A stretch of 64,000 bases of DNA from Candidatus Liptonbacteria bacterium (GCA_023244895.1 JAHFLL010000001.1:335702-399701), one strand, 5' to 3'. Shown: positions 5,988 to 55,700, counted from the stretch's first letter. Numbers and translations are program-made. Notes: a model not told the origin generated them from the letters alone.

Positions 5988-6024
5988 GGGTAGAGAGTAG
6001 TAGGTAGAATGTAGTGTGTAAAAT

Positions 6025-6738: not shown

Positions 6739-6745
6739 ACTAAGA

Positions 6746-7543
6746 TTGGCTGGCAAAACGATTTTATCCAACCACTCTCCAATTGAAATGTATCAATTAC
6801 CGAAACTTTCCAAGATGCCAGAGCTGACTCACGCTTTTTCCGATAAATCGGATGGCAACATGGCCGTTAGGTTCGGTGCGGAAGATGAGGTTTATAGAAA
6901 CCGTGTGGAGTTTTTGAAAAAGCTTAAAATAGAAACCAGGCAAACCGTCCTGATGGAGGTTCAACATGGCACGGACATAGAGTTTGTGGATAAGGGTGAT
7001 GGCGGGAAGGGAATGCTGCCGGACGTGCCGGGCTATAAAGTGGACGCCTTAGTTGCCATGGAAGACGGGGTCTTCCCATTCCTATTAGTGGGCGACTGTT
7101 TGCCGATTGTTCTATATGACCCGAAGAATAGGGTTATCGCTCTCGCACACCTAGGTTGGCGCAACACAGACCAGAGGTTTGTGGAGCTGTTGATCGGGGA
7201 GCTTAAGAAAGAGTGCGGTACGGACCCAGCCGACTTAATAGCGGGCATTGGACCATCTATACGCAAAGAGTCTTATATTTTTAAGGAAGGCGAGATTGCC
7301 GAAAGAAATTTAAAATGGGGCAGTGAATTTCTGATTCCGATTGGCAGGGGAAATGTCGCGGTTGATATCGCGGGATATAATATCGCGCAAATAATGGGAA
7401 CTGGGGTTAAGCTTGATAACATTGAAATAAGCGAGAGGGACACGGCCCAAGACGAAAATTATTTTTCTCACTACCGCTCCGCCCGGATCAAGGAGGAGGT
7501 GGAGGGCAGGATAGCGGCGGTGGTTGGAATGGTATGGAAATGA
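6746..7543 (+). CDS. pgeF: Peptidoglycan editing factor PgeF (YfiH/DUF152 laccase-domain protein)
   Basis: HGTDIEFV...DALVAMEDGVFPFLLVGDCLPIVLYDPKNRVIALAHLGWRN. Confidence 0.75.
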   Translation: MAGKTILSNHSPIEMYQLPKLSKMPELTHAFSDKSDGNMAVRFGAEDEVYRNRVEFLKKLKIETRQTVLMEVQHGTDIEFVDKGDGGKGMLPDVPGYKVDALVAMEDGVFPFLLVGDCLPIVLYDPKNRVIALAHLGWRNTDQRFVELLIGELKKECGTDPADLIAGIGPSIRKESYIFKEGEIAERNLKWGSEFLIPIGRGNVAVDIAGYNIAQIMGTGVKLDNIEISERDTAQDENYFSHYRSARIKEEVEGRIAAVVGMVWK

Positions 7544-8600
7544 TATAATTCAGGAGATGTTGCAATCTAGACTGGAGAACACCTTTTATTTTGCGGTTTT
7601 GCTTTCGGTCTTGGTTTTGGCCTGCTATATTTTCTGGCCAAGCGTAACCGCCTTAGTTTTGGCACTTACCTTTGCTACGGCATTTCGTCCGGTATATAGA
7701 TTTCTTAAAAGGATTCTGCGCTGGGAAGGACTGGCGTCCATTGTTACCGTATTTTTGGTTTTGATTGTGGTTTTCCTGCCCTTGGGATATTTCGCGCGCG
7801 AGATTCTAAATCAGGCAACGGCTCTCTATGTGAATCTTGCCCAAGGCGAGACCGACCCGAGCAGTTTTGTGAGGCACATCTCCGAAACTAAAATAGGACA
7901 AATTCTGCCTTCCGTGACCGGCGCGGAATTTGATAAATACGTAAGCGAATCCCTGAGCTGGCTAGTGGGTCAGTTCGGCGCCATTTTCCAACAGATTACC
8001 AATATTCTCTTTACCATTTTCATTAGCTTGATAGCGCTTTATTATTTTTTGAGAGACGGCGAAAGGTTCAAGACGGAAGTGATAGGCGCACTGCCTATTC
8101 ATTCGGCCTACGCGGAAGAAATATTGCGCCAGACGGCGCGGGCCATTAAGTCGGTGATTTTGGGCGCGCTCGCGATAGCTGTCATTCAGGGCGTCTTATC
8201 TGGGATAGGGTTTGTTATTTTTGATGTGCCCCGTCCTGCGCTTTGGGCCGCAGTTACTATAGTGGCCGCTCTTGTGCCGACCCTCGGCACATCTTTAGTT
8301 CTCATTCCGGTCGTCGCTTACTTGTTTATTTCCGGTCAGACCATGGCCGCGCTAGGCATGGCGATCTGGGGCGCGATAGCAGTGGGTCTGATAGATAATC
8401 TCTTGGGTCCCAAGCTGATGCAATATGGCACCAAGGTGCATCCCTTGCTGATACTTTTAAGCGTAATCGGCGGTATATCGGTATTTGGAGTTATTGGTTT
8501 TCTGGTGGGTCCAATCGTGCTCGGGTTCTTATATGCCCTGCTTGATATTTATCCTAAAATTGTAAGACCAGAGACCAAAGCGATAAATGATCTGGCATAA
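7524..8600 (+). CDS. AI-2E family transporter (PerM/YdiK-like, PF01594)
   Basis: About 8 TM helices with a central cytoplasmic loop; length and topology typical of UPF0118. Confidence 0.6.
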   Translation: MEWYGNDIIQEMLQSRLENTFYFAVLLSVLVLACYIFWPSVTALVLALTFATAFRPVYRFLKRILRWEGLASIVTVFLVLIVVFLPLGYFAREILNQATALYVNLAQGETDPSSFVRHISETKIGQILPSVTGAEFDKYVSESLSWLVGQFGAIFQQITNILFTIFISLIALYYFLRDGERFKTEVIGALPIHSAYAEEILRQTARAIKSVILGALAIAVIQGVLSGIGFVIFDVPRPALWAAVTIVAALVPTLGTSLVLIPVVAYLFISGQTMAALGMAIWGAIAVGLIDNLLGPKLMQYGTKVHPLLILLSVIGGISVFGVIGFLVGPIVLGFLYALLDIYPKIVRPETKAINDLA

Positions 8601-11292
8601 ACTGCCTTTACCCGAAATAGAAAGAGAGCTCAACACGGACTACCGCTCTGGTTTAACGTCTGAGGAAGCCAAGGCGCGCCTTGCGCAAGATGGTCCAAAC
8701 GAACTACCAGAAGGAAAAAGAGAGGGCTGGCTCCGGATATTTTTGCGCCAATTTGAGAGTCCGCTTATATACGTACTTATTGTTGCGGCAATAGTTGTTT
8801 TTCTGTTGGGAGAAATAATAGACAGCCTACTGATAGCTATAGTTTTATTATTCAACGCTCTGGTGGGCGCGATTCAGGAGGGTCGCGCGGAAAATACTAT
8901 GCTCGCCCTGCGTCGTTTCACTACTACTAGCGCAACAGTTATTCGGGACGGTAGGGAGATGATAATTTCGGACCGGGAGGTCGTGCACGGAGACATTATC
9001 TTGTTGCATGAAGGAGACAAGGTTCCCGCGGATGCGCGTCTCATAGAGGCGAACACTTTGCGCTCCGAAGAAGCTTCCATTACGGGAGAGTCCCGACCAA
9101 TTCATAAAGATCCGGAATCTTCTCCGGACCAGTACGCCCCGATCTCCGCGCAGACCAACATGGTTTTTAAGGGCACGGGCATAGCGAGCGGTAGGGGCAA
9201 GGCAGTGGTTACCGCGATTGGTCAGGGTACGTATCTCGGTCTAGTCAGCCAAACTATTTCCAAGATAGATACAGAAATTCCCCTGAGGCGCAACATCCGT
9301 AAGTTTTCGGAATATCTTATCTGGGGTATTGGAATTTTTAGCGTTGGCCTGTTGGGCCTGGGAGTGGCGATGGGCCGCCCTTTGGCAGAAATGTTTTCGG
9401 TTACGGTTTCACTCGCGGTTTCCGTGATACCGGAAGGCCTGCCAATCGTCCTGACTCTTATCTTGGCGCGCGGCGTGTGGCGAATGGCTAAGCGCAACGC
9501 ACTCGTCAAAAAACTGCAGGCGGTAGAGGCTTTGGGCGAAGCAAAAATTATAGCGGTTGATAAGACTGGAACCCTGACGCGCAATGAGCTCGTAATACAC
9601 AGCATATATATTGATGGCAAGATGTTTGATGTCCTGGGCACCGGTTACGAACCGAAAGGAGAGATTAAATTGAATGGCAATACGGTTACTCCAGGCAGTC
9701 ATCCAGAACTATTGTTGGCGGGCAGAATCGCCGCAGTTTGCGCCAATGCGCGCACCGCCTACTCGGAAGAAGAAAGCTCCTGGAGAGTCTCGGGCGATCC
9801 CACCGAAGCTTCCATGTTCGTGCTGGCTAGCAAGCTGGGATTTGACAAGGACGACGTGGAGCGGGAGACGCCGCTAGTGGCGGAGATACCTTTTGATTAT
9901 CGCCTGAAATATCACGCTACCGCCCACGATATGGGTGGAGGGAAACAATTCATGACCGTGGTGGGCGCGCCCGAGTCGGTTTTGCCCCTGGGCGGTAAGG
10001 TTTTTGAAAATGGCAAGCCGGAGGAGCTAACTCAGGAGAAAAGAGAAAAAATAGAAAGCGTTTTTCACCACATGTCGCGGGCTGGCTTGCGAGTAGTCGC
10101 TTTTGGGTACAAGGAAGAGGGTCTGTCCCGTAAGGGAGACAATATAGAAGTTTCTAACTTGGTTTTGGCGGGATTTTACGGAATTCAAGATTCCTTGCGT
10201 CCGGAAGTTCCCGAGGCAATGTCGCGCGCCCGCGCGGCGGGCATAAGAGTAGTTATGATAACAGGCGACGCCAAGCTAACCGCGGTAGCCATCGCCAAAG
10301 AAGCGGGTATTTGGAGCGCGGGCGACGAGGTTCTAACAGATGAAGATTTGGAACACTTGTCCGAAAACGAGTTACAACAGCGCATTCGTCGCACCAGTGT
10401 TTTCGCGCGCATTACTCCGGAAAATAAAATGAAGATAATTGATGCTTACCGCAAGAACGGGCAAGTGGTGGCTATGACTGGAGACGGGGTAAACGACGCG
10501 CCCTCGCTTGTAGCCGCGGATTTGGGCGTGGCGATGGGTAAGATTGGAACCGAGGTGGCGCGCGAGGCGGCGGACATAGTTCTTTTAGATGACAATTTCG
10601 GTAGTATTGTTTCCGCGGTGGAGGAGGGCAGAAATATGTATGCCACGATTCAAAAAGTCATCCTTTTCCTTCTCTCTACTAGTTTGGGCGAGGTGCTGGT
10701 CATATTGGGGGCATTGATTTTGGGCTGGCCAATTCCGCTTTCTGCCCCGCAGATTTTATGGATGAATCTGGTAACTGACTCTTTTGTTGCTTTTGCTCTG
10801 GCGTTAGACTTAAAAGAAGAGGGTCTGTTGCAGGCCAGTCCGGTTCAGCGGGGAAGATTTTTAATAGACAGAACTTTTCTGGTTCGCATGTTTATTATGT
10901 CCGCAGTCATGACCTTTGGCGGACTTCTTTCTTTCGGACTGCTCTATTCCACGGATCTAGTTAAGGGCTGGACGATAACTCTCACGGTTCTGGCTATGTA
11001 TCAATGGCTGAATGGCTGGAACTGCCACTCCGCCACCCTCTCGGTTTTTGAGGAAGTTCCCTGGAAAAATAAATTTTTGGTTATCGGGGTTGGTTTAGCA
11101 GCGCTATTGCATATCGGAGCGATGTATACTCCCTTTATGCAAAAACTACTGGACATAACTCCGCTCAGCTTGGAAGAATGGGCTTGGTGCTTCGCGGTCG
11201 GATTCCTGATTGTCATATTTGAAGAACTTAGGAAGGGATGGCAAAAGAGGCCTCGTAGAAAGAAGTCAGGACTAATGGTCGGTAATCGATAA
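8587..11292 (+). CDS. Cation-transporting P-type ATPase (P2-type, Ca2+/Mg2+-like)
   Basis: DKTGTLT phosphorylation motif, PEGLP, TGDGVNDAPSL hinge; 901 aa. Confidence 0.9.
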   Translation: MIWHKLPLPEIERELNTDYRSGLTSEEAKARLAQDGPNELPEGKREGWLRIFLRQFESPLIYVLIVAAIVVFLLGEIIDSLLIAIVLLFNALVGAIQEGRAENTMLALRRFTTTSATVIRDGREMIISDREVVHGDIILLHEGDKVPADARLIEANTLRSEEASITGESRPIHKDPESSPDQYAPISAQTNMVFKGTGIASGRGKAVVTAIGQGTYLGLVSQTISKIDTEIPLRRNIRKFSEYLIWGIGIFSVGLLGLGVAMGRPLAEMFSVTVSLAVSVIPEGLPIVLTLILARGVWRMAKRNALVKKLQAVEALGEAKIIAVDKTGTLTRNELVIHSIYIDGKMFDVLGTGYEPKGEIKLNGNTVTPGSHPELLLAGRIAAVCANARTAYSEEESSWRVSGDPTEASMFVLASKLGFDKDDVERETPLVAEIPFDYRLKYHATAHDMGGGKQFMTVVGAPESVLPLGGKVFENGKPEELTQEKREKIESVFHHMSRAGLRVVAFGYKEEGLSRKGDNIEVSNLVLAGFYGIQDSLRPEVPEAMSRARAAGIRVVMITGDAKLTAVAIAKEAGIWSAGDEVLTDEDLEHLSENELQQRIRRTSVFARITPENKMKIIDAYRKNGQVVAMTGDGVNDAPSLVAADLGVAMGKIGTEVAREAADIVLLDDNFGSIVSAVEEGRNMYATIQKVILFLLSTSLGEVLVILGALILGWPIPLSAPQILWMNLVTDSFVAFALALDLKEEGLLQASPVQRGRFLIDRTFLVRMFIMSAVMTFGGLLSFGLLYSTDLVKGWTITLTVLAMYQWLNGWNCHSATLSVFEEVPWKNKFLVIGVGLAALLHIGAMYTPFMQKLLDITPLSLEEWAWCFAVGFLIVIFEELRKGWQKRPRRKKSGLMVGNR

Positions 11293-11321
11293 TCAATATC
11301 CTAGAGACGAGAAGTTAAGAT

Positions 11322-11792
11322 ATGCCGGAGAGCATAAACAAACATTTCAAAGCAAGACCAGGGCAAAGAGATTACACCCACGTTCGGGAAGCGCCAGTTA
11401 TAAACAGTGTTATAGAATGCGCCGGAGAAATATTACTAGTGCGTCGTAGCGATAAATTGGGGTTTTATCCTGGGCTATGGAGTGGAATCACGGGCTTTTT
11501 GGATGATGAAAAAAATCCAGAGAACAAACTGAAGGAGGAAATTTGGGAGGAACTTGGTATCGCAAGTGACAAGCTTGGGCCAATAGAATCTGCCCCTCCA
11601 TTTGAGACAGAGGACGCAAGGTATTCCAAGACATGGACGGTCTATCCTCTTAGGGCTGTCTTGTCTACCAAAGAGGTTAAGCTCAATTGGGAGGCGGAGG
11701 AATACGCTTGGATATTGCCCGAAAAGATTTATGAATACAATCTTATGCCCGGTTACGACAAGGTGTTTAGAATATTCTATCCGGAGCTGTAG
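11322..11792 (+). CDS. NUDIX-family hydrolase (divergent)
   Basis: GFLDDEKNPENKLKEEIWEELGI Nudix-like box. Confidence 0.5.
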   Translation: MPESINKHFKARPGQRDYTHVREAPVINSVIECAGEILLVRRSDKLGFYPGLWSGITGFLDDEKNPENKLKEEIWEELGIASDKLGPIESAPPFETEDARYSKTWTVYPLRAVLSTKEVKLNWEAEEYAWILPEKIYEYNLMPGYDKVFRIFYPEL

Positions 11793-11839
11793 TTGGGGCA
11801 AAATGGATAAAATGAGCGAGAAATGCTTTAATTTCAGCA

Positions 11840-12574
11840 ATGATTAAGATCTCTCGTTCTAAGCTAGAGTTATTTACAAAATGCCCGCGTTGCTTTTGGC
11901 TGGACGTAAAATATGGGGTTAAACGTCCTCCAGGCTTTCCCTTCACTATAAATAGCGCGATAGACTACTTATTTAAGCAGGAATTTGATATTTATCGCGC
12001 GGAGGGCAAGCCCCATCCAATTATGGTGGAGGCAGGAATAGATGCGGTGCCATATAACGGTCCGGAAATGGACGCCTGGCGGGACGCGCTAAAAAATGGA
12101 GTCATTTATCATGACCCGGAGAGCGATATTACCCTAAGAGGCGGAGTGGACGATGTTTGGATAAACTCGGCTGGGGAACTAATCGTAGTGGATTATAAGT
12201 CCACCGGCTCCGGTTCCGGCATTCCGACGGTCTACGACGAATATGTTCGCCAGTTGGAGGTTTATCAATGGCTACTCGCTAAAAATAATTACAAAGTTTC
12301 GCCGGTGGGTTATTGGGTGTACGCCCAGGCGGATAAGTCCCAAGGCTTTGGCCACGGCAAACCCATCTTGCCATTCAATCTTTATTTAAAGTCCGCGACC
12401 GGCAAGTGGGATTGGATTCCGGAAAAACTAATGGAAGCGAAGAAGGTATTAGAGATGGAAACTCCACCCGACCCAGGCGAGGAGTGTATGGCTTCCGGCA
12501 TACAGTCCTTTTGCAAATATCGCCAAGACTCTATGAGGGTCACCCGGGACGCGCTCCAGAAGGGAAAATCCTAG
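11840..12574 (+). CDS. Cas4-like PD-(D/E)XK nuclease with a four-Cys (Fe-S type) arrangement; no CRISPR array nearby
   Basis: N-terminal CPRCFWL, catalytic D...VVDYKS, QxxY, C-terminal ECMASGIQSFC. Confidence 0.6.
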   Translation: MIKISRSKLELFTKCPRCFWLDVKYGVKRPPGFPFTINSAIDYLFKQEFDIYRAEGKPHPIMVEAGIDAVPYNGPEMDAWRDALKNGVIYHDPESDITLRGGVDDVWINSAGELIVVDYKSTGSGSGIPTVYDEYVRQLEVYQWLLAKNNYKVSPVGYWVYAQADKSQGFGHGKPILPFNLYLKSATGKWDWIPEKLMEAKKVLEMETPPDPGEECMASGIQSFCKYRQDSMRVTRDALQKGKS

Positions 12575-12585
12575 AAAAGAAAAAA

Positions 12586-13059
12586 AGCGTGCCGATAATC
12601 CGTGGACTAAAGAAGATAATTTGGACGGTTCACTCCCGGCAAAAGATGCGCCAGTACGGTCTCTCCGAGGCGCGGGTTTTGCGCATAATTCACACACCCG
12701 CGCGAGTGGAGGATGGCGTCGCGGATAAGACGATTGCTTTTATGCAAAAGGCGGGCAGTAAGGCTCATCCCAACGAACTTTGGACTATGGTGCAGGATGT
12801 TGGACAGAAGAGGAAAATCATCAGCGCCTGGCGTTATCCGGGCGTGACCAAGCCCCGCGGGGAAGCGGCTATGAACTTTATCCGGGCAGAACTGGAAGAC
12901 TTCTTGGTCAAAGAAGAGGAGCCACCCAAACCTAAGCCTAAGCTCAAAAAATGGTTTAAGCCTCAAGCCAAAACAATGCCCAGGCAGCCCTGGCCCAAGC
13001 GTAAGTTCCAAAGTTTCCGTAACATAAAATTGGGAGACCAAAATAAGTCCGATGAATAG
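12586..13059 (+). CDS. Hypothetical protein with a Lys/Pro-rich C-terminal tail. The ORF track begins it at 12406, which overlaps the preceding gene; GTG 12586 is the more likely start
   Basis: The 12406 ORF overlaps 11840..12574 by 169 nt in another frame. The tail EEEPPKPKPKLKKWFKPQAKTMPRQPWPKRK is low-complexity. Confidence 0.35.
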   Translation, partial: SVPIIRGLKKIIWTVHSRQKMRQYGLSEARVLRIIHTPARVEDGVADKTIAFMQKAGSKAHPNELWTMVQDVGQKRKIISAWRYPGVTKPRGEAAMNFIRAELEDFLVKEEEPPKPKPKLKKWFKPQAKTMPRQPWPKRKFQSFRNIKLGDQNKSDE

Positions 13060-13194
13060 ACCCCATTATTGGATTTATGTAGCGATAGTACTCTTGTTTC
13101 TCTGTGCCTGGTTGCTTTGGACTTATTTTTATAAACCGGGCTTGATTTAGCGCAGGATTTTTCATCTCTAGCCCAGCGGAATATTTTTTCTCGC

Positions 13195-13400
13195 AAGAAG
13201 CTCTTGGAGACAATCTTCGCCTCTCCAGGTAAGTGGAGGCTTTCCCTTCGGGAGAAGCTTTCGGAGGCTAAATAAGCTAGGTATCGTTCAGAACGATTTA
13301 TTTAGCCGAGAAGCAGCGGGCAGCTTCCGCCGGAGAAGCTGAACCGCGGTTCTCTCGAAGAGAAAACCGCAGCGGAGTTATCCACAGAAATCTCTTCTCA
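13195..13400. other. Highly structured non-coding segment: stacked hairpins plus four GAGAAGC motifs; candidate ncRNA or island attachment/regulatory region
   Basis: GGCTAAATAAGC..GATTTATTTAGCC hairpin, CAGCTTC/GAAGCTG hairpin, CCGCGG..CCGCAGCGG pairing; no ORF. It is followed by a strong terminator at 13557-13590. Confidence 0.3.
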
Positions 13401-13556
13401 TGTCTCAGGCTTGCATTATCATCAAATTAATGAGCAATCAGACACCATCTTCCCACCAGTCGTATCTCATAATTACCCGTAACTATTTGTGGCTGTCTTT
13501 GGTTTTGTTTACTAAGGACGGTGGGGGAGGCTGATGTAATTTCACAGGATTTTTAC

Positions 13557-13590
13557 AAAAGCCCCCTCCCGCCGAGGGGGCTTTTGTGTG
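13557..13590. terminator. Bidirectional rho-independent terminator (GCCCCCTC-ccgcc-GAGGGGGC + TTTTGTGTG, A-run upstream)
   Basis: Read directly. Confidence 0.6.
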
Positions 13591-13676
13591 TCCGGGATTG
13601 ATTGCTAGTAATGGTAGGCAGTCCCGGGGACGCGAATGGGTTGCGTTCCAAATGCACCTTGAGAGGAGAGGGAGGG

Positions 13677-14036
13677 ATGGAGATAGAGTTCATCTGCACT
13701 GAGACGGACGAGGGCTTGCGCAAGCTCGTGGATTCGGACTGCTTCGTGGTGGCGCATGGTCTGGAATCCTTGCGCGACCCGAGGTTCGGTCCACTGGTTG
13801 AAGGGGAGCTGAGGGGTCTTCCGGTCGGTCCGCGACGGATCTATCTGAAGAGTGGCAATGGCACGCCGCCCGGCAAGACGATGCTGGTGCGGCTCGTAGA
13901 TGATCCCAGTCATCGCATTGATCTGGACCTGTATGCCACGGATGGCTGGGGCGTTATCTTGCCTGCGGGCATGAGTCCAGACCAGATGTGGAGGGTCATC
14001 ATCAAGGCGTTGTCCATTCTAGAAGTTCGGGACTAG
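13677..14036 (+). CDS. Hypothetical protein, first gene of the GC-rich island (ATG 13677 preceded by GGAGGG)
   Basis: High-GC codon usage, strong RBS gagaggagagggagggATG; no recognisable domain. Confidence 0.45.
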   Translation: MEIEFICTETDEGLRKLVDSDCFVVAHGLESLRDPRFGPLVEGELRGLPVGPRRIYLKSGNGTPPGKTMLVRLVDDPSHRIDLDLYATDGWGVILPAGMSPDQMWRVIIKALSILEVRD

Positions 14037-14225
14037 CGCGTCCCGCCTAGAGGCGCCATCTCTAACCTACCCCATAGTCTGTCGCGGGTCGTCCAAACGG
14101 GGACGACTCGCGGCACCAACTTGTTATCTGAAGACTGTTTATTAAAAGATAAATAGTCTTCAGATCGCAGGCAGCGATCTGATAAGCTGCGTCGGGCAGC
14201 TTACATAGCACCTTGAGGGGACCAT

Positions 14226-14450
14226 ATGACCGAAATCGCAACGGGCGGACCCACCTGGACCAGCGGCGCGAATACGAGCGGCCCCGGACGTTTCGCGGCC
14301 ATGAGTGCGGGAGAGAGGTATGCTCTCCCCGCATCATCCGTGGAGCGCGAGGGGCCGCTCGGAAGGGTTGGGCAGGAAGAGTCGGTCGGATCCGCTCCCG
14401 TCGGTCAGAGCGGAAGCCCGCGCGGGCGGCGGCTCGATAGCTGGGCCTAG
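14226..14450 (+). CDS. Possible small Gly/Ser/Pro/Ala-rich protein (74 aa) in the island; could be a frame artefact of GC-rich DNA
   Basis: ATG with gagggga 6 nt upstream and GC3 of about 70%. Competing ORFs exist in other frames. Confidence 0.2.
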   Translation: MTEIATGGPTWTSGANTSGPGRFAAMSAGERYALPASSVEREGPLGRVGQEESVGSAPVGQSGSPRGRRLDSWA

Positions 14451-14636
14451 GGGAGTATAGTCCTGAGAATATTTTGGGGGTCGTGAGAGTCTTCAGGCGC
14501 TCGCAAGTCACGACTCCCACCCCATTTATCAAAAATATGAGATTACTTTTAATCGCTAAGAAATATTATTGGTTTAGTTATGAACCTCTCACGAGAAAGG
14601 GGCTGTTTGAGTAACTGCGTATTTATACAAACAACC

Positions 14637-14667
14637 AAAAAACCTCTTTCTCGGAAGAGGTTTTTTG
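14637..14667. terminator. Rho-independent terminator (AACCTCTT-tctcgg-AAGAGGTT + TTTTTT), bidirectional
   Basis: Read directly, immediately upstream of the ligase genes. Confidence 0.55.
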
Positions 14668-14720
14668 TTCCTCTTTCGAAGTGTCGCCCCTTGAGAACTT
14701 AATACGGAAAGGACAGGGAC

Positions 14721-15479
14721 ATGCATCAGATACAGGACTTCTTGGCGAGTTTCCGTTTCCGGCCAGAGCTGGCCGGCTGCGTCGGCATCGAGAGGGAAAG
14801 GTTTCTCGTGTCGCCCGAAGGTGCGTTCGCGCCCAGGGCAGACGAGTTTCTCTCGGAGATGCGGGACGCGGCTTGGACGTACGAGCTGTCGCGCTGCCAG
14901 GTTGAAGACAGAACCAGGTCGGCGCGCGACCACTTCATCGTCAAGGCGAATCTGCTCTCGAACGACAACCGGGGCAAGTTCGTCGCGGCGAAGATCGGTC
15001 TTGGGCTCCAGACGCTGGAAGTGGCGCCCGAAAGCATGCCGCTCGACGTCTACCCGGAGCCCCGCTACTTGGCCATCGCGGAAAAGATCAGCCGGGAAAC
15101 GCTCTCGGCTGCATGCCGGGTCGCCGGCACGCACATCCACCTCGGGATGCGCAACATGGACGAGGCCATCGCGGCCTACAACCTGCTCCGTGCTGAGCTG
15201 GAGACGCTCACGCGGCTCGGCGATCATTCCGGCGGAGAGAGAATAAGGCTCTACCGGGCGATGGCGGGGAAGTGGAATCCGCCGCAGTACCGGGACGAGC
15301 AGGAGCTCTTCGAGATCGCGCGTCAGGAAGGATTCGCGGAGAACTCCAGAAACTGCTGGCATCTTATTCGGATAACTCAGAAGGGAACGGTGGAGTGCCG
15401 GATGTTCGGCGTAACCGTATTCCCGGACGAGATTCTGGAGTGGGTGTCGGCTGTAAGGCGCATCGCGAGGGGAGTCTAA
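14721..15479 (+). CDS. Compact glutamate-cysteine ligase family 2 (GCS2/YbdK-like) carboxylate-amine ligase
   Basis: VGIERERFLV (YbdK GIELEMQVV-like Mg site), ELSRCQVE, RVAGTHIHLGM (YbdK GQHVHVG), GTVECRMFG (YbdK GTVEVRVMD). High GC3. RBS ggaaaggacaggg. Confidence 0.6.
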   Translation: MHQIQDFLASFRFRPELAGCVGIERERFLVSPEGAFAPRADEFLSEMRDAAWTYELSRCQVEDRTRSARDHFIVKANLLSNDNRGKFVAAKIGLGLQTLEVAPESMPLDVYPEPRYLAIAEKISRETLSAACRVAGTHIHLGMRNMDEAIAAYNLLRAELETLTRLGDHSGGERIRLYRAMAGKWNPPQYRDEQELFEIARQEGFAENSRNCWHLIRITQKGTVECRMFGVTVFPDEILEWVSAVRRIARGV

Positions 15480-15483
15480 GAGT

Positions 15484-16797
15484 ATGAGTAACCCAATGCT
15501 CGACGCGTTCGACGCTCAAGCGGAAGATATCTGCTCTCGTAGAGACAGCTTCCGCGTATCCGCTCCGGCGGTCGTAGTCGGTCTCGAATCGGAAATCGCG
15601 CTATTCTCGGACGAAATCGAGCCGCGCGACATATCCCAATTGCGGGAAGAGATGATCCGCGAAAACGGAGAACTCGCCCACGAGCTCGGAGCCACTCAGC
15701 TCGAGTTCCGGACGTCGCCGGTCGATATTCTGGATCGGGGCATTGGGGCGCTGCAGGAAGAGTTGGCGGGGAAGTACGAACAGATTCGGAGACAGGCCGT
15801 AGCGAGAGATCTCTTCATTCTCCGCATCGGCGCGAATCCGTTCTACCCCATCCTGGGCGCGCCCCGAACCGATAAGCCGCGGTATCAGCTGGTGCCGGAC
15901 TTTCAGAACGTGAATCGGCGGGCGGGCATGGACACGACCATCGGGATGAACGGCACACGGGTTGACGTCGGAGACGCGGCCAGCGTGTCGTTGTTCCAGG
16001 CGCTCCACGTGAATCTGCAAGCAGATTCCATCCCGGACGCGGTGGACAAGCTGAACCGATCCCTCATGGTCAGCCCCTACGTCCTCGCCGCGGCGGGCAA
16101 CTCGCGCTACCTGAACCTCACGGACACGGGCCTCAATGAGGCGCGCATGGTCGTCTGGGAGTTGAGCCACGATACGCGGACTCCGGAGGAGTTGCGCCAG
16201 GGCGTCGGTCTCCGGATCGGCTTGCCGGAGAACTACTTCGGAAATCTGCGCGCCTACTTCAATCGGATGCGCAGGTATCCGTTCATCCTGGACGATCCGG
16301 CCAAGGCCTTCGGTATCGCGACTGGTCTGTCCTGGCTCGACGCGCGGATCAAATTCATCGGCAATCACGCGGTGGTCGAGTTGCGCTCCCTGCCCACCCT
16401 GCCCACTACCTCGCAGGAAGTGGCGTTCGTGTCGTTCTATCTCGGCCGGCTGTTCTACTCCCAGCTCTCCGGCGAGAACCTGCTCGACATTGCGATGGTC
16501 GAGGAGAACCGTCTGAATGCGATGCTCTACGGTCTCCAGGCTCGCTTCTGGTGCCATGCGGATGGGGGCGTCAAGGTCTTGAGCGGAACGGAGATGTTCC
16601 GCTCGGAGCTCGCCAAGGCGAAGTCCGGCCTGGGAGAGGTAGGACTATCCGCCGATGCTCTGGGAGAGATTGAGGATTGGGGAGAGCTCGGTTCTCCTTC
16701 GTCCCGTCTCGCCCAGAACCTCTCGGGATATGTCCAGGTCCCGCACTGCAAGATGGTAGATGCGCTGTGGCGCACCGGCATTCTGGACATGTGCTAG
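15484..16797 (+). CDS. Second, longer GCS2/YbdK-like carboxylate-amine ligase paralogue
   Basis: VVGLESEIALF, ELAHELGATQLEF, SLFQALHVNLQ, NHAVVELRSLPT correspond to the GCS2 motifs. RBS aggggag. 4-nt gap from the previous gene. Confidence 0.55.
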   Translation: MSNPMLDAFDAQAEDICSRRDSFRVSAPAVVVGLESEIALFSDEIEPRDISQLREEMIRENGELAHELGATQLEFRTSPVDILDRGIGALQEELAGKYEQIRRQAVARDLFILRIGANPFYPILGAPRTDKPRYQLVPDFQNVNRRAGMDTTIGMNGTRVDVGDAASVSLFQALHVNLQADSIPDAVDKLNRSLMVSPYVLAAAGNSRYLNLTDTGLNEARMVVWELSHDTRTPEELRQGVGLRIGLPENYFGNLRAYFNRMRRYPFILDDPAKAFGIATGLSWLDARIKFIGNHAVVELRSLPTLPTTSQEVAFVSFYLGRLFYSQLSGENLLDIAMVEENRLNAMLYGLQARFWCHADGGVKVLSGTEMFRSELAKAKSGLGEVGLSADALGEIEDWGELGSPSSRLAQNLSGYVQVPHCKMVDALWRTGILDMC

Positions 16798-16809
16798 TTC
16801 GCAGTTTGT

Positions 16810-16843
16810 GGCCCCCGGTACGTTTAACCGGGGGCTATTTTTA
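16810..16843 (+). terminator. Rho-independent terminator (GCCCCCGG-tacgtttaa-CCGGGGGC + TATTTTTA), closing the GC-rich island
   Basis: Read directly. Confidence 0.6.
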
Positions 16844-16917
16844 TCAATCTTCTTTTGCCGCAATTGTGACAGGCTCCACATCTTTTAAAAATAGTTACGA
16901 TATGAAATAATCTAATT

Positions 16918-17676
16918 ATGTGCAGAATATTGGCAGTTACGGGAAAAGATTGGCAGATGGATACAGTTTTGGAAGACTTCGGACGCCTGGCCGAATACGG
17001 ACATGTGCCCGAATCAACCGCGCCTGGCCACAAGGATGGTTGGGGAGTGGTGGCACACAATAAGGGCGGAGTTAGCTTTTATGCTCGTAGTACAGAAGAC
17101 GCTTTTAGCGATCCCAGGTTCAGAGAGGTAGCGGATTTCGTCGGCAAAACGAGCCCAGACGTTTTAATTTCTCATTTTAGAAAAGCGTCTATCGGCTCGG
17201 TAAATATCCCCAATACGCACCCGTTTTTGAACGGCAAGATTTCTTTTTGCCACAACGGCTCCATCCGTTCGGAAATATCTTTGAGCGAAAATTCTGAGGC
17301 TCTTTTGCAAGGAGAAACCGATTCGGAGAGATTCTTTTTTATGATATTAGAAAAAATGCAGGCCGGGGCGAGTCTTAAAGACGCGCTTAAAAATTGTGTA
17401 AAATTAGCGCGCGAAAACTTTGATTTTACGGCTATAAACTTATTGATATCAGACGGCGGTTTTGTCTGGGCCTTACGCGAGATTAACGAAAAAAGCGAAA
17501 TAGTTCAGAAGGAAAACTTATTGGATTATTACAGCTTGTTTTTGGGTAAAAATAAATCTTCTTTCGTGATTTGCTCCGAGCAATTGTCTGTAGGGGGAGA
17601 TTGGCAGTTAATGCAAAATCACGAGTTGGTGGAAATAGATGTTGCGAATTCGGTTGTTGAATCCGAAGTTATATAG
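16918..17676 (+). CDS. Class-II (Ntn) glutamine amidotransferase, YafJ/EgtC-like; host-type AT-rich codons
   Basis: MCRILAV... (Cys2 nucleophile after the initiator Met) and HFRKASIGSVNIPNTHPF, typical of GATase type 2. Confidence 0.75.
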   Translation: MCRILAVTGKDWQMDTVLEDFGRLAEYGHVPESTAPGHKDGWGVVAHNKGGVSFYARSTEDAFSDPRFREVADFVGKTSPDVLISHFRKASIGSVNIPNTHPFLNGKISFCHNGSIRSEISLSENSEALLQGETDSERFFFMILEKMQAGASLKDALKNCVKLARENFDFTAINLLISDGGFVWALREINEKSEIVQKENLLDYYSLFLGKNKSSFVICSEQLSVGGDWQLMQNHELVEIDVANSVVESEVI

Positions 17677-18104
17677 TTTGAGATATCTATAGGTTGGTGA
17701 TATAAGAGAATAAGCAGGCGCATTGTCGCCCACCAGCTGAGGAGGCTTCTGTGGATGTTCGGATCAGCCCTAGCGAGGAGTTGGCGAGAGGTATCCTCGC
17801 GACCCGAAATTGTCTTGTTCTTGTCGAGCTCCAGCTCGGCGAGGAAGAAGGCGATTTCGCGTGCGTCGTCTTCGGACCGGAGGATCTCCTGGAAGAGATC
17901 GCGGGGATTCAGGGTTGGGAACGAAGACCAACCGAGCCCCTCTCGATTCAAGTCCCTCTCCGGGCGGAGGCTTCGGAAGTAGTCAGGATTCTGGAACTTT
18001 CCATCGTTGATCTGTGCGTGGTGTCGGACGGCGATGGCGGGGAGATGGAATTCCCTGGTCCGGACGTCTCCCTTTAGCGAGTAGCAGTGGGTACGCGGAC
18101 GCAT
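17619..18104 (-). CDS. Possible GC-rich gene remnant on the minus strand (GC-rich patch about 17740-18120); function unknown, probably 3'-degraded
   Basis: The minus frame has the higher GC at codon position 3. agagg lies 7 nt upstream of ATG 18104. The ORF runs into the 3' end of the GATase gene. Confidence 0.2.
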   Translation of the reverse strand: MRPRTHCYSLKGDVRTREFHLPAIAVRHHAQINDGKFQNPDYFRSLRPERDLNREGLGWSSFPTLNPRDLFQEILRSEDDAREIAFFLAELELDKNKTISGREDTSRQLLARADPNIHRSLLSWWATMRLLILLYHQPIDISNYITSDSTTEFATSISTNS

Positions 18105-18201
18105 TTGTCGCCTCTGCCCACCCACCCGAGTTCATTATCCATATGGTGAATTGGGGTGGGTTTAATTGATTTAATCGGGCGAATCGCTATGATTAGCGTA
18201 A

Positions 18202-18969
18202 ATGACACAGTATCCTTTTAGGACTCGTTTTAAAAAAGAAATTGTGGCGGAATTTTTGCCTCCGGCGCGACCGGGTAAAAAACAACGCGTGATTATTTTG
18301 TGCGACGGCATGCCGAGCGTGCCCAATCGGCGTAGCTTGATGCAATTTTTATCTCGAAAGGGCTACTGGGTTTTCCATCCCCGTTATCGTGGCGCTTGGG
18401 AAAGCGGTGGGCAATTTTTGGCCAAGTCTCCGCACCTGGATATTCTGGACGTTGTAAGTGGTCTTAAGGGTAAGATAAAAGAAAGGGCTTACGGTAAAAC
18501 TTTTCCCATAAAGCCGGACGAAATATTTGTGGTCGGAGGCAGTTTTGGCGGTCCGGCGGCGATACTCTGCTCGCTTGATAAGCGCGTTAAAAAAGTTGTG
18601 GCTAACTGTCCGGTAGTGGATTGGCCGGCGAGTAAAGCGGGAGATAAGGCAGAGACATCCCATAAGAACTATGCCGCGTACGTGCGGGAGGCTTTCGGCA
18701 ACGGCTACCGCCTAACCGATAGAAACTGGAACAAGTTGTATTCCGGTAAGTTCTATAATCCTATGCATCATATAAAGGAAATTGATCCGTCCAAGATAAT
18801 AATGTTCCATGCCAAAGACGATCCGGTCGTGAACTGGCGGAGCGTCGCCAAGCTCTCCAAGCTGACCGGAGTCAAGCTAAAGTTACAGAACAGAGGCGGG
18901 CATATCTCAACCCCTTATGTGGTTGAGAAATATTGGAAACAGATAAGCAAATTTTTTAAGTCTAAATAA
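18202..18969 (+). CDS. Alpha/beta hydrolase (dienelactone hydrolase / peptidase S9-like)
   Basis: GGSFGG nucleophile elbow; 255 aa. Confidence 0.55.
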   Translation: MTQYPFRTRFKKEIVAEFLPPARPGKKQRVIILCDGMPSVPNRRSLMQFLSRKGYWVFHPRYRGAWESGGQFLAKSPHLDILDVVSGLKGKIKERAYGKTFPIKPDEIFVVGGSFGGPAAILCSLDKRVKKVVANCPVVDWPASKAGDKAETSHKNYAAYVREAFGNGYRLTDRNWNKLYSGKFYNPMHHIKEIDPSKIIMFHAKDDPVVNWRSVAKLSKLTGVKLKLQNRGGHISTPYVVEKYWKQISKFFKSK

Positions 18970-19476
18970 ATGGACACGCTGTCTCATGGGCTGTATGCCG
19001 GAATCGCTTTCGGTCGTAGAAGCAAAAGGGATTACCTGACAGCCTTTTTGTTCGGTATCGGACCGGATATATTGTCTTTTGGACCATTCTTCCTGGGTGC
19101 CATATTGGGTTTAGAAGATTGGCCCGGCCGGGGCGCGGAACCACCCAGCTCCGACCTAATCCCAGGTTTCGTCTATTTGCTCTACGATTTTACTCACAGT
19201 TTTCTAATTTATGCCCTATTCTTCGCCTTGTTGTGGTGGTTGGGCAGAAAAAGTTTCGCGTTGCTGACTCTGGGCTGGCCACTTCATATCCTAGTTGATA
19301 TTCCGACCCATTCCGCAATATTTTTCCCGACACCATTTCTTTGGCCGATTTCTAATTTTTATATAGATGGGCATCCTTGGGGTAGCCCGGAGATATTTCT
19401 TCCGAACGTGGTTTTACTGGTGGGACTCTACGCGTATTGGTATACTCACAGAAGAAAAAACCGCAAACAAGTCTAA
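18970..19476 (+). CDS. Membrane-bound metal-dependent hydrolase (YdjM/DUF457-like)
   Basis: His-rich TM protein; LHILVDIPTHS. Confidence 0.45.
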   Translation: MDTLSHGLYAGIAFGRRSKRDYLTAFLFGIGPDILSFGPFFLGAILGLEDWPGRGAEPPSSDLIPGFVYLLYDFTHSFLIYALFFALLWWLGRKSFALLTLGWPLHILVDIPTHSAIFFPTPFLWPISNFYIDGHPWGSPEIFLPNVVLLVGLYAYWYTHRRKNRKQV

Positions 19477-54180: not shown

Positions 54181-54513
54181 ATGCTTACTAAGCTTCCCGA
54201 AAGTTTGAATTCGGATGGTAAAGGCTCAGATGCGCCTCCTCGAGTGGTTCCATCTCGGATGCTGGCATTGCTTATGGCCATATTATTATCTGCCCTCTGT
54301 GCTCCAAGAGGAGTTAAACGTGCCGTTTTCAGAATGGGGATCATCGATTCCCCTTTTCCTTTCGTTACTACCTTAAGCGTGGTTGTTCTAGTCTTTTTTG
54401 TAGCGCAAATTATTGTGACCTATTCTATTATTAGAGCCCCTCTCGATATGAAATCTAAAGTTGTATTAATATTTTTCATATCTTTATTGTCTTTTATTGT
54501 CAGTGTGAACTAG
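54181..54513 (+). CDS. Hypothetical small membrane protein
   Basis: ORF only. Confidence 0.25.
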   Translation: MLTKLPESLNSDGKGSDAPPRVVPSRMLALLMAILLSALCAPRGVKRAVFRMGIIDSPFPFVTTLSVVVLVFFVAQIIVTYSIIRAPLDMKSKVVLIFFISLLSFIVSVN

Positions 54514-54623
54514 GCAATAGAATCAGAAATATACTTTTGCCCTACCACATACTTGGAGCATTTTAGGGACTCCCGAAGAGGGCGCGTCTCCCTATATTCG
54601 TAATACTAATTTATATCAACATA

Positions 54624-54652
54624 TTGACATTATGGCAATAATAGTATATAAT
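54624..54652 (+). promoter_or_regulatory. Perfect consensus sigma70-type promoter TTGACA-17-TATAAT, in host-like AT-rich DNA, driving the GC-rich secreted-protein gene
   Basis: TTGACA 54624-29, 17-nt spacer, TATAAT 54647-52. Confidence 0.6.
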
Positions 54653-55644: not shown

Positions 55645-55700
55645 CCGCACAAGTCCGCCGGGTAGCTGATCCCCGTTCAGATCAGCATCGTGCAACATTC

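What the first reader, a model, noticed from the sequence alone, without database searches (positions are those of the whole stretch)
13557..16850. GC-rich island carrying two tandem GCS2/YbdK-like carboxylate-amine ligases
This roughly 3.3-kb segment has a sharply higher GC content than the backbone. It is bracketed by strong terminators (13557-13590 and 16810-16843) and has its own GGAGG-type ribosome-binding sites. It encodes a 119-aa protein, a possible 74-aa Gly/Ser/Pro-rich ORF, and two adjacent paralogous ligases of 252 aa and 437 aa. Both ligases show the GCS2 hallmarks: an N-terminal G(I/L)E.E metal site, an EL...Q.E motif, a GTH.H.G / H.N.Q motif and a GTVE.R-type C-terminal motif. 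The first is unusually compact, and the second has long insertions. A tandem GCS-superfamily pair preceded by small ORFs is the architecture of amide-bond tagging systems. PafA/Dop/Pup and the amidoligase systems predicted by Iyer et al. 2009 are examples. It could equally be a small-molecule gamma-glutamyl ligase pair acquired horizontally. Neither is expected in a minimal-metabolism CPR-type genome.
Basis: partly seen in the sequence, partly recalled or inferred. Interest (0 to 1): 0.8.

Follow-up and report, generated by a model that had tools for sequence, protein, structure and literature searches.

The report
Attenuator-controlled GCL-type ligase pair in CPR
The GC-rich segment really does carry two glutamate-cysteine-ligase-type enzymes, but they form a gene module typical of these tiny (CPR) bacteria and most likely make a small molecule, not a protein tag; they sit behind a previously undescribed leader-peptide switch that appears to sense aromatic amino acids.

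Summary
Window 13.56-16.85 kb is 59.4% GC against 47.3% elsewhere (z 6.8). It encodes a 252-aa and a 437-aa protein that both pass the Pfam GCS2 threshold and fold like YbdK and plant GCL. The pair is not foreign to CPR: the compact ligase has over 229 homologs, nearly all labelled Patescibacteria, and the window's gene order (PDDEXK, p137, short, long, GATase_4, hydrolase, YchF) recurs in distant relatives. Protein tagging is not supported: there is no Pup-ligase hit, PafA/Dop are much poorer fold matches, the 119-aa ORF is an orphan and the 74-aa ORF does not look coding. The main new result is a conserved 25-codon mini-ORF (14537-14614, MRLLLIAKKYYWFSYEPLTRKGLFE) followed by mutually exclusive antiterminator and terminator helices, both with compensatory changes. 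This is a leader-peptide attenuator. A weaker match to the same scaffold, with a Phe-rich leader, precedes prephenate dehydratase elsewhere, and the sister ligase clade sits beside TrpRS and TrpR-like genes. Best reading: ATP-dependent small-molecule amide ligases tied to aromatic amino acid supply. The substrates are unknown.

The parts
13557..13590 (.). Left boundary: GC-rich hairpin flanked by an A-run and a T-run (bidirectional terminator-like)
   Evidence: The stem is GCCCCCTC/GAGGGGGC.
13677..14036 (+). 119-aa ORF (p119): a real-looking but orphan gene that is not part of the conserved module
   Evidence: It has coding-like GC periodicity and no Pfam or NCBIfam hit. One homolog (64% identity) sits in a close relative at the same position. 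Only one further clear homolog was found among 1.8 billion representatives. It is absent from the syntenic loci L002, L004 and L006.
14040..14520 (.). GC-rich spacer containing the 74-aa ORF (14226-14450); probably non-coding
   Evidence: Neither the 74-aa ORF nor the antisense 156-aa ORF has codon-position periodicity. There is no family hit and no remnant of the third ligase or the class-I GATase.
14434..14461 (+). Promoter-like site (TCGATA-16-TATAGT) upstream of the leader
   Evidence: This is a consensus match only.
14537..14614 (+). Leader mini-ORF MRLLLIAKKYYWFSYEPLTRKGLFE; the aromatic codons YYWFSY lie at 14564-14581 and the Trp codon at 14570-14572
   Evidence: A mini-ORF with an in-frame (Y/F)-W-(F/Y) core is conserved in 19 survey loci besides the window. 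The Trp codon is at codon 9-14 in 18 of 19 leaders measured, window included.
14583..14600 (+). Element 1 (attenuator regions 1 and 2). Its 3' half (14591-14600) pairs with the terminator's 5' arm and loop, forming the antiterminator
   Evidence: It is conserved at the RNA level in all three reading frames. The antiterminator helix is 95.6% paired, with 4 pairs and 12 cells changed on both sides, and 0 of 500 shuffles reach the observed covariation score.
14636..14667 (+). Terminator hairpin 2 (AAAACCUCUUU-CUCG-GAAGAGGUUUU) with a U-run, 52 nt before the ligase start codon
   Evidence: The helix is 98% paired with 3 covarying pairs. Its sequence is nearly identical across genomes of 34-60% GC.
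14721..15479 (+). Short (252-aa) GCS2/YbdK-like carboxylate-amine ligase, a trimmed catalytic core
15484..16797 (+). Long (437-aa) plant-GCL-like carboxylate-amine ligase, starting 4 nt after the short ligase's stop codon
16808..16838 (+). Strong terminator ending the ligase operon. It also marks the right boundary of the island and a breakpoint relative to relative L065
   Evidence: L065 is colinear at 84.6% identity up to 16847, then differs.
16918..17676 (+). Stand-alone Ntn (class-II GATase-like, YafJ/EgtC-type) amidohydrolase with backbone GC content; a separate transcription unit
   Evidence: Pfam GATase_4 gives 62.7 bits. The EgtC model gives 72.8 bits against a cutoff of 218. The closest PDB entries are 1te5, 3mdn and EgtC 4zfj. 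Cys2 is invariant. The same position is conserved in L002 and L006.

Best explanation
This is a gene module typical of CPR (Patescibacteria), not foreign cargo.

Shown: two catalytically intact, very divergent members of the glutamate-cysteine-ligase (GCS2/GS) fold are encoded back to back, 4 nt apart. One is a 252-aa minimal YbdK-like core. The other is a 437-aa plant-GCL-like enzyme.

Shown: they lie behind a conserved leader. It has a 25-codon mini-ORF with the run Tyr-Tyr-Trp-Phe-Ser-Tyr, then an RNA element that can pair with the 5' arm and loop of a downstream terminator hairpin (the antiterminator). The terminator hairpin can instead form on its own.

Inferred: a ribosome that stalls at the aromatic codons when charged Trp/Tyr/Phe-tRNA is scarce covers the 5' half of element 1. 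This frees the 3' half to disrupt the terminator, so the ligases are switched on by shortage of aromatic amino acids.

Inferred from fold and conserved neighbours: the ligases use ATP to join a carboxylate, most likely the gamma-carboxyl of glutamate, to an amine. The product is a small-molecule amide or dipeptide-type conjugate, plausibly involving an aromatic amino acid or a precursor of one. The adjacent stand-alone amidohydrolase would cleave that kind of bond. In this window it is a Ntn/GATase_4 enzyme. In relatives it is a class-I GATase, an AstE/AspA-type enzyme or an M20 enzyme.

The high GC and GC3 content of the ligases and p119 is best explained by an old in-place replacement from a GC-richer CPR lineage.

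For: CPR module. The short ligase has over 229 homologs and occurs in 55 GTDB species loci. Synteny with L002 and L006 is clear.

Hydrolase partners. A different amide hydrolase sits next to the short ligase in different lineages: class-I GATase in 16 loci, AstE/AspA in 15, GATase_4 in 3, M20 in 2.

Attenuator.
- The mini-ORF is conserved with its aromatic core in frame.
- Element 1 is conserved in all three frames, or lies after the stop codon.
- The terminator helix is 98% paired and the antiterminator 95.6% paired. Both have compensatory changes, and 0 of 500 shuffles reach the observed covariation score. They share columns 117-126, so they exclude each other.
- The Trp codon lies a median of 12 nt before element 1.
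- The covariance model finds the leader in L021, which was not used to build it (67.7 bits), and in about 39 metagenome loci at 57 bits or more.

Aromatic link. A weaker match to the same scaffold, behind the leader ...FNFFFTFF..., precedes prephenate dehydratase. The sister clade of short ligases lacks the leader and instead sits beside TrpRS (260 bits, above cutoff) and a TrpR-like HTH protein.

Precedent. A GS-superfamily gamma-glutamyl-arylamide synthetase working with a GAT-like hydrolase of the same bond is known from aniline and naphthylamine pathways (PMC11335346). Carboxylate-amine ligases next to GATase-like thiol peptidases were earlier predicted to make small peptides and not protein tags (PMC2588565).
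Against: - No substrate has been shown, and nothing in the sequence identifies glutamate or an aromatic partner.
- It is not obvious why shortage of aromatic amino acids should induce ATP-consuming ligases.
- None of 19 mini-ORFs has a clear Shine-Dalgarno sequence, so translation of the leader is inferred from frame conservation only.
- The amidohydrolase lies outside the unit the attenuator controls: a terminator separates it in the window, and it lies upstream of the leader in relatives.
- The pheA-associated leader matches the model only weakly (37.8 bits, E 2.5e-4, from rough calibration).
- Both ligases score far below NCBIfam's YbdK and GshA cutoffs, so their function cannot be transferred from those enzymes.
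- The replacement scenario for the GC anomaly rests on composition only. The ligases are no closer to the GC-rich L002 orthologs than most of the flanking genes are.
Confidence: 0.6

Rival explanations
1. Low-molecular-weight thiol synthesis. The long ligase would be a true gamma-glutamylcysteine ligase, the short one would add a second residue or amine, and the Ntn hydrolase would recycle the product. This would be a glutathione-like system.
For: The long ligase's best sequence and fold relatives are plant-type GCL. YbdK was reported to have gamma-Glu-Cys ligase activity (reference cited in PMC2588565). The GATase_4 partner's best NCBIfam match is EgtC, which cleaves a gamma-glutamyl bond in a thiol pathway (the EgtC chemistry is from my own knowledge).
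Against: Every regulatory and contextual signal points to aromatic amino acids, not cysteine: the leader codons, TrpRS, the TrpR-like gene and chorismate mutase. No GshB or ATP-grasp gene, and no EgtB/D/E genes, lie nearby. NCBIfam GCL and EgtC scores are far below their cutoffs.
Confidence: 0.15
2. Glutamine-dependent amidotransferase complex. The GATase partner would hydrolyse glutamine and pass ammonia to the ligase or ligases, which would amidate a carboxylate. This is the logic of GatCAB or MurT/GatD.
For: Class-I and class-II GATase-type proteins replace each other next to the same ligase pair. The class-I partners' best matches are generic 'glutamine amidotransferase' models. GS-fold enzymes that work with glutaminase subunits exist, namely GatB/GatE (PMC2588565).
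Against: In the sister clade the partner is a metallo-hydrolase (AstE/AspA or M20), which cannot supply ammonia, so the common denominator is amide hydrolysis. The GATase is transcriptionally separate from the ligases (the leader lies between them in relatives). Stand-alone GATase_4 proteins with a known function are hydrolases (EgtC).
Confidence: 0.12
3. RiPP-like system. The aromatic mini-ORF would be a precursor peptide that the ligases modify. The hairpin would merely set the ratio of precursor to enzymes.
For: A conserved short ORF lies immediately upstream of ATP-dependent ligases. A read-through hairpin between precursor and enzyme genes is common in RiPP operons (my own knowledge).
Against: Only the aromatic core is conserved as peptide. 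The rest of the conserved sequence is read in three different frames or lies after the stop codon. The terminator's loop covaries with the upstream element. A match to the same scaffold precedes prephenate dehydratase and several unrelated proteins.
Confidence: 0.06
4. Pup-like protein tagging. The two ligases would act as ligase and deamidase, and p119 or the 74-aa ORF would be the tag.
For: There is a tandem pair of GS-fold enzymes with small ORFs upstream. PafA and Dop belong to the same superfamily.
Against: There is no PF03136 hit. PafA and Dop are much poorer structural matches than YbdK and GCL. The small ORFs are not conserved with the pair, the 74-aa ORF looks non-coding, and it does not end in GGQ or GGE. 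No proteasome or AAA partner lies within the flanks. A terminator separates the small ORFs from the ligases.
Confidence: 0.03
5. Recent horizontal acquisition from outside CPR, or an assembly chimera.
For: The shifts in GC and GC3 content are sharp, and terminators sit at both edges.
Against: All detectable homologs and the conserved leader are from CPR-type genomes. The locus is syntenic with distant relatives. Relatives at about 85% DNA identity share the GC-rich genes. An independent assembly is identical across both junctions.
Confidence: 0.03

Closest known systems
E. coli/Salmonella YbdK (GCS2, PF04107; PDB 1R8G, 1TT4)
   Different: Sequence identity is 17-20%. NCBIfam's YbdK model gives 39 and 36 bits against a cutoff of 176. 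The short ligase is 252 aa against 372 aa for YbdK, and only 225 residues align; from the alignment the missing part appears to be C-terminal. YbdK's own physiological role is unsettled.
Plant-type glutamate-cysteine ligase (Brassica juncea GCL, PDB 2GWC/6GMO)
   Different: Identity is about 20%. The genes are paired with a second ligase and controlled by an aromatic-codon leader. There is no evidence for cysteine as a substrate.
Aniline/1-naphthylamine gamma-glutamylation pair (AtdA1/AtdA2, NpaA1/NpaA2)
   Same: A GS-superfamily ATP-dependent ligase makes a gamma-glutamyl amide of an aromatic amine, and a GAT-like enzyme hydrolyses the same bond (PMC11335346). The genomic logic of ligase plus GATase-like hydrolase is the same.
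Carboxylate-amine ligases next to GATase-like thiol peptidases (Iyer, Burroughs and Aravind 2008)
   Same: A GCS2-sized ligase lies in a conserved neighbourhood with a GATase-like peptidase and no Pup-like ORF. The authors predicted synthesis of a glutathione-like small peptide (PMC2588565).
   Different: That family was described in proteobacteria and firmicutes. Here there are CPR-specific subfamilies, two or three ligases per locus, and an attenuator.
PafA/Dop/Pup pupylation system
   Same: The superfamily fold is the same, and there are two family members per locus.
   Different: The fold match is much weaker. There is no Pup ligase HMM hit, no Pup-like tag and no proteasome context.
Leader-peptide transcription attenuators of amino acid operons (pheA, pheST and trp leaders; Rfam RF01859, RF00513)
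   Same: A short ORF carries a run of codons for the sensed amino acid(s), followed by mutually exclusive antiterminator and terminator helices just upstream of the regulated gene. One weaker match to the same scaffold controls prephenate dehydratase.
   Different: It is not a member of any Rfam family: the best match is Phe_leader at 26.7 bits against a threshold of 55. The codon run mixes Tyr, Trp and Phe. The host is CPR. The hairpin sequence is unusually conserved. The regulated genes are GCL-fold ligases and several unknown proteins, not classical biosynthetic enzymes.

Membership tests
GCS2 / carboxylate-amine ligase superfamily (PF04107) | Pfam HMM match above the gathering score | tested here: met
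   The short ligase scores 27.3 bits and the long 41.3 bits, against a cutoff of 21.
GCS2 / carboxylate-amine ligase superfamily (PF04107) | GS/GCL catalytic fold | tested here: met
GCS2 / carboxylate-amine ligase superfamily (PF04107) | Conserved metal and phosphate-binding residues (ExE, E, His or an equivalent, ExR) | tested here: met
   Short ligase: E24, E26, E62, H140, E225 and R227 are invariant, and H138 is conserved in at least 90% of sequences. Long ligase: E35, E37, E67, E74, E299 and R301 are invariant, N177 is conserved in at least 90%, and it has Q/H-V-N-L in place of H-V-H, as plant GCL does.
YbdK family / GshA equivalogs (NCBIfam TIGR02050, NF0100xx) | Score above the curated family cutoff | tested here: not met
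   The best scores are 46 bits against 332, and 39.4 and 35.8 bits against 176.4. Names and functions cannot be transferred.
YbdK family / GshA equivalogs (NCBIfam TIGR02050, NF0100xx) | Gamma-glutamylcysteine ligase activity | not testable with these tools
   This needs an enzyme assay.
PafA/Dop/Pup tagging system | Pup-ligase/deamidase family HMM (PF03136) | tested here: not met
   There is no hit at E <= 1 for either protein.
PafA/Dop/Pup tagging system | Conserved small disordered tag gene ending in GGQ or GGE | tested here: not met
   p119 is an orphan that is absent from the orthologous loci. The 74-aa ORF ends in ...DSWA and lacks coding periodicity.
PafA/Dop/Pup tagging system | Proteasome or Mpa/ARC ATPase context | tested here: not met
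   None is present among the called genes of the window locus or the syntenic loci.
Leader-peptide transcription attenuators | Short ORF with clustered codons for the sensed amino acid(s) | tested here: met
   Codons 10-15 read YYWFSY. Four or five of the seven residues around Trp are aromatic in all 19 leaders measured, and the core is always in frame.
Leader-peptide transcription attenuators | Intrinsic terminator between the leader ORF and the regulated gene | tested here: met
   It lies at 14636-14667 with a U-run. The helix is 98% paired with 3 covarying pairs.
Leader-peptide transcription attenuators | Alternative antiterminator pairing that excludes the terminator | tested here: met
   Columns 46-55 pair with columns 117-126: 95.6% paired, 12 compensatory cells including terminator-loop positions, and 0 of 500 shuffles reach the observed covariation score.
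Leader-peptide transcription attenuators | Translation of the leader and read-through that depends on amino acid supply | not testable with these tools
   No Shine-Dalgarno sequence is seen in any of 19 leaders. This needs a reporter assay or ribosome profiling.
Leader-peptide transcription attenuators | Membership of a curated Rfam leader family | tested here: not met
   Phe_leader scores 26.7 bits against 55. No family reaches its gathering score.
Ergothioneine pathway (EgtA-EgtE) | EgtC equivalog score, and EgtB/D/E genes nearby | tested here: not met
   TIGR03442 scores 72.8 bits against 218.65. There are no EgtB/D/E-type neighbours.

The most novel reading that the evidence does not exclude
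The leader would be the founding member of a CPR-wide class of leader-peptide attenuators that sense aromatic amino acids. It would place the GCL-fold ligase pair, and several protein families of unknown function, in a regulon that responds to shortage of Trp, Tyr or Phe. The ligases would make gamma-glutamyl (or similar) conjugates of aromatic amino acids or their precursors. That would be a CPR-specific way of capturing, buffering or building aromatic amino acids in organisms thought to depend on their hosts for them.
Probability: 0.3. Interest if true: 0.8.

Novelty: new variant of a known kind. Interest (0 to 1): 0.6.

Why it matters
CPR/Patescibacteria genomes are full of conserved genes with no known role, and their amino acid economy is central to how they depend on hosts. 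This work takes two large uncharacterised ligase families, annotated only as 'hypothetical' or 'GCS2', and attaches a concrete and testable physiological cue to them, namely aromatic amino acid supply. The cue rests on three independent lines: a leader peptide with an invariant Trp codon, a TrpR-like repressor gene, and a neighbouring TrpRS gene. The work also describes a compact cis-regulatory RNA of about 115 nt that is not in Rfam. It can be used to map a regulon in uncultivated bacteria, and its mechanism can be tested in vitro. I found no report of leader-peptide attenuation in Patescibacteria in the searchable literature.

Tried and rejected
- I looked for remnants of the third ligase (unk310) or the class-I GATase in window 13.0-14.76 kb, using HMMs on six-frame pieces and tblastn. 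Nothing was found. None of these, nor an AstE-type gene, occurs anywhere in the 64-kb window.
- I tested whether p119 is a truncated ligase because it starts GGMEIEF. No HMM supports this.
- Rfam found only one tRNA at gathering thresholds. At relaxed thresholds it gave only weak 'leader', miRNA or RNAI-type matches caused by the hairpin.
- Sequence searches of PDB with the single ligase sequences found nothing. Profiles were needed.
- The Iyer et al. 2009 amidoligase paper is not held. I used the 2008 paper instead.
- Exact look-ups meant to name the source organism returned no names.
- Pfam on accessory ORFs gave nothing. These were the L065 downstream ORF, the L064 158-aa ORF, p137, the ORFs in the second GC-rich patch, and most genes downstream of other leader copies.
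- The idea that the window's ligases came recently from an L002-like GC-rich donor is not supported. Identity to L002 is 52-56% for the ligases, against 51-70% for three flanking genes (37% for GATase_4).
- About 11 of the 66 metagenome hits to the hairpin pattern are just a terminator after an upstream ribosomal-protein-like gene (L27 by my reading), with no leader.

Full report
OBSERVATION

The segment 13557-16850 is 59.4% GC against 47.3% for the rest of the window. No other window of the same size exceeds 50.5% (z = 6.8). The three genes inside it have the three highest third-position GC values of the 53 genes I scored: 0.81, 0.78 and 0.72, against a mean of 0.53.

Hairpins followed by U-runs lie at 13563-13580 and 16808-16838.

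An independent Logan assembly of run SRR14366791 is 100% identical to window 5484-19002. A chimera is therefore unlikely, although I could not inspect reads.

THE TWO LIGASES

Both pass the Pfam GCS2 gathering score of 21 bits: 27.3 and 41.3 bits. Both fall far below NCBIfam's cutoffs for YbdK and GshA equivalogs. They are members of the superfamily but not of any named family.

They are not recent paralogs. BLASTP finds nothing significant between them, and only profile-profile comparison relates them (94%).

AlphaFold models built on family alignments are very confident, with pLDDT 97.2 and 96.2.

So the long protein is a complete GCL-type enzyme and not a core with insertions. The short one is a trimmed core whose size of 250-260 aa is conserved in the listed homologs, out of more than 229 found.

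The family alignments keep the catalytic signature. Residue-level alignments match the short ligase to YbdK's GIELE, LELAT, GQHVHVG and GTVEVR motifs. They match the long ligase to plant GCL's QVNLD strand and W...DRT motif.

DISTRIBUTION AND NEIGHBOURHOOD

Homologs of both proteins come almost entirely from genomes labelled Patescibacteria, Parcubacteria, Yanofskybacteria, Liptonbacteria, Uhrbacteria and the like. Many other records carry generic labels ('uncultured Gammaproteobacteria/Saccharibacteria') that I could not verify.

The window's gene order is PDDEXK nuclease, p137, short, long, GATase_4, alpha/beta-hydrolase, YchF. It recurs in L002 and L006, whose proteins are only 37-70% identical to the window's. 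The locus is therefore ancestral.

Across 55 GTDB species loci anchored on the short ligase I found two architectures.
- Architecture A is (third ligase)-class-I GATase-short-long. The window's version (A') replaces the upstream class-I GATase with a downstream Ntn-type GATase_4.
- Architecture B is short-AstE/AspA-type hydrolase, or rarely short-M20. It typically lies next to tryptophanyl-tRNA synthetase (TIGR00233, 260 bits), a TrpR-like HTH protein (54 bits) or a chorismate mutase-methyltransferase fusion.

The unannotated 305-337-aa protein in architecture A is a third, very divergent GS-fold ligase. It has GxExET, YELGRxNxE, VQFT and CIEVRP motifs, and hhalign gives 95% against the long family. 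It is absent from the window.

The recurring partner is always an amide-bond hydrolase, but of four unrelated folds. This argues that the shared function is cleavage of the kind of bond the ligase makes.

The window's partner has the invariant Cys2 nucleophile and no synthase domain. It is closest to YafJ-like structures and to EgtC.

THE SMALL ORFS AND THE TAGGING IDEA

p119 looks coding. However, it has one homolog at the same position in a close relative and only one further clear homolog among 1.8 billion representatives. It is absent from the syntenic loci.

The 74-aa ORF and its antisense partner show no codon periodicity and no family hit. There is no Pup-ligase hit, no Pup-like C-terminus and no proteasome context. 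I reject the tagging reading.

THE LEADER

A search for conserved small ORFs beside the pair turned up a different one, an aromatic-rich mini-ORF just upstream of the short ligase. In the window it is ATG 14537 to TAA 14614, MRLLLIAKKYYWFSYEPLTRKGLFE.

A homologous mini-ORF with a (Y/F)-W-(F/Y) core occurs in the window and 19 survey loci of its clade (20 of 24 loci), and in no architecture-B locus.

Downstream lie two elements.
- Element 1 has the consensus AACCUCUCUCGAGGAAGG followed by a U-run.
- Hairpin 2 has the sequence AAAACCUCUUC-YYCG-GAAGAGGUUUU followed by a U-run. It lies 35-80 nt before the ligase start in most loci, 52 nt in the window.

Hairpin 2 is nearly identical in sequence across genomes of 34-60% GC.

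Element 1 is read in all three frames, or lies after the stop codon, in different loci. Only the aromatic core keeps its frame. Element 1 is therefore constrained as RNA, and the aromatic codons are constrained as codons.

RNAalifold pairs element 1 with the hairpin-2 region. Scored separately:
- The terminator helix is 98% paired, with 3 pairs changed on both sides.
- The antiterminator pairs element 1's 3' half with the terminator's 5' arm and loop. It is 95.6% paired, with 4 pairs and 12 cells changed on both sides, for example CGAG/CUCG, CGGGG/CCCCG and UGGAG/CUCCA.
- For both helices, 0 of 500 shuffles reach the observed covariation score, and shifted registers drop to about 70% paired.

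The two helices share columns 117-126 and so exclude each other. The Trp codon lies a median of 12 nt before element 1, which is within reach of a stalled ribosome.

This is the anatomy of a classical leader-peptide attenuator. It is not in Rfam: the best match is Phe_leader at 26.7 bits against a threshold of 55.

INDEPENDENT SUPPORT

An exact-pattern scan of metagenome contigs with hairpin 2 returned 66 loci.
- A covariance model built from 18 leaders scores about 39 of them at 57 bits or more.
- Eighteen precede a short or long ligase.
- In L124/L071 a weaker match to the same scaffold (37.8 bits, E 2.5e-4) follows the mini-ORF MEKQITSSLTNTFNFFFTFF... and precedes prephenate dehydratase (PDT+ACT, 172 bits). 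That enzyme is the textbook target of Phe-codon attenuation.
- Other copies precede proteins with no family assignment.

Together with the TrpRS and TrpR-like genes in architecture B, this gives three independent links between this ligase family and aromatic amino acids.

CAVEATS
- No mini-ORF has a recognisable Shine-Dalgarno sequence.
- The direction of regulation is inferred by analogy.
- E-values from the covariance model are rough.
- The hydrolase genes lie outside the unit the attenuator controls.

COMPOSITION AND HISTORY

Relatives at about 85% DNA identity share the GC-rich p119 (L064) and the long ligase (L065), so the anomaly is not recent. L065 diverges from the window right after the terminator at 16847 and carries a different downstream gene. 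This makes that terminator a recombination boundary.

In other CPR genomes the short ligase is on average 3.6 GC points above its flanks (sd 3.6, up to +12). Here it is +15. The window's ligases are no closer to the GC-rich L002 orthologs than most flanking genes are.

I infer an old in-place replacement from a GC-richer CPR lineage. I cannot prove it.

COMPARISON WITH KNOWN SYSTEMS

By fold and motifs these are GCS2/GCL-type carboxylate-amine ligases.

The logic of the system most resembles two things. One is the pairing of a GS-superfamily gamma-glutamyl-arylamide synthetase with a GAT-like hydrolase in aniline and naphthylamine pathways (PMC11335346). The other is the earlier prediction that carboxylate-amine ligases next to GATase-like peptidases make small peptides and not protein tags (PMC2588565).

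The regulatory element works like the pheA and trp leaders but belongs to no curated family.

VERDICT

The ligases are new subfamilies of a known superfamily. The attenuator is a new variant of a known regulatory type. The aromatic amino acid link is a new, testable clue to function.

Noticed in passing
L004:3230-4147, L009:6110-7060, L012:178-1113, L017:5908-6921, L022:5922-6854, L023:5935-6915, L025:6065-6988, L026:6063-6989: An unannotated 305-337-aa protein sits upstream of the class-I GATase in eight CPR loci. It is a third, highly divergent GS/GCL-fold ligase with GxExET, YELGRxNxE, VQFT and CIEVRP motifs. It has no Pfam or NCBIfam hit; hhalign gives 95% against the long-ligase family.
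   Followed up: partly
Architecture-B loci, e.g. L036, L041, L048, L049, L057, L044: The more distant short ligases (38-49% identity) form trpS-(TrpR-like or chorismate mutase-methyltransferase)-ligase-AstE/AspA clusters and lack the leader. This is a second, independent link to tryptophan and aromatic amino acids.
   Followed up: partly
L124:179-301 and L124:1354-1487; L071: A weaker match to the same attenuator scaffold (37.8 bits), with a Phe-rich leader (FNFFFTFF), precedes prephenate dehydratase. A second copy of the leader follows that gene on the same short contig.
   Followed up: partly
L069:11059-12558, L077:4509-6035; L075:756-1037, L080:3132-3392; L107:324-809; L102:849-1457; L072:725-1126: Other leader copies precede proteins with no Pfam family: a soluble family of about 500 aa, an 86-93-aa family, and proteins of 161, 202 and 133 aa. 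The L072/L074 leader is rich in Asn and Tyr (MQNQNLGHNYKYNSN), so the scaffold may have been re-targeted to other amino acids.
   Followed up: partly
window 54500-55900: This is a second GC-rich patch, 56-63% GC. The frame 54742-55644 (+) has GC3 of 0.88 and is the likely gene. Neither it nor the overlapping 391-aa ORF has a Pfam hit.
   Followed up: partly
window 13060-13560 compared with L064:6712-7697: A 500-nt stretch with no ORF and many short inverted repeats lies upstream of the island. The relative L064 (85% identical) has a 985-bp segment with a 158-aa orphan ORF where the window has 234 bp. Its contig ends just past the p119 homolog.
   Followed up: no
L065:1408-2223 compared with window 16848 onward: In the closest relative of the long ligase (88% amino acid identity), the gene after the terminator is a GC-rich ORF of at least 272 aa with no family hit, not a GATase_4. 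The amidohydrolase partner is therefore not fixed even among close relatives.
   Followed up: partly
Survey loci L009-L060: The short-ligase gene is GC-richer than its flanks in most CPR genomes. The mean difference is +3.6 points, and several loci reach +9 to +12. This suggests either repeated exchange among CPR lineages or a compositional bias specific to this gene.
   Followed up: partly
L020:8749-9824; L029:8774-9115: In two genomes the long ligase is split or truncated (279 + 113 aa, and a 113-aa fragment) while the short ligase is intact. This is consistent with the short enzyme being able to work alone.
   Followed up: no
window 16918 compared with the gene call in L001: The automated gene call for the GATase_4 protein starts 39 nt downstream (239 aa) and removes the catalytic Cys2. 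The ATG at 16918 (MCRIL...) matches the conserved N-terminus in L002 and L006.
   Followed up: yes
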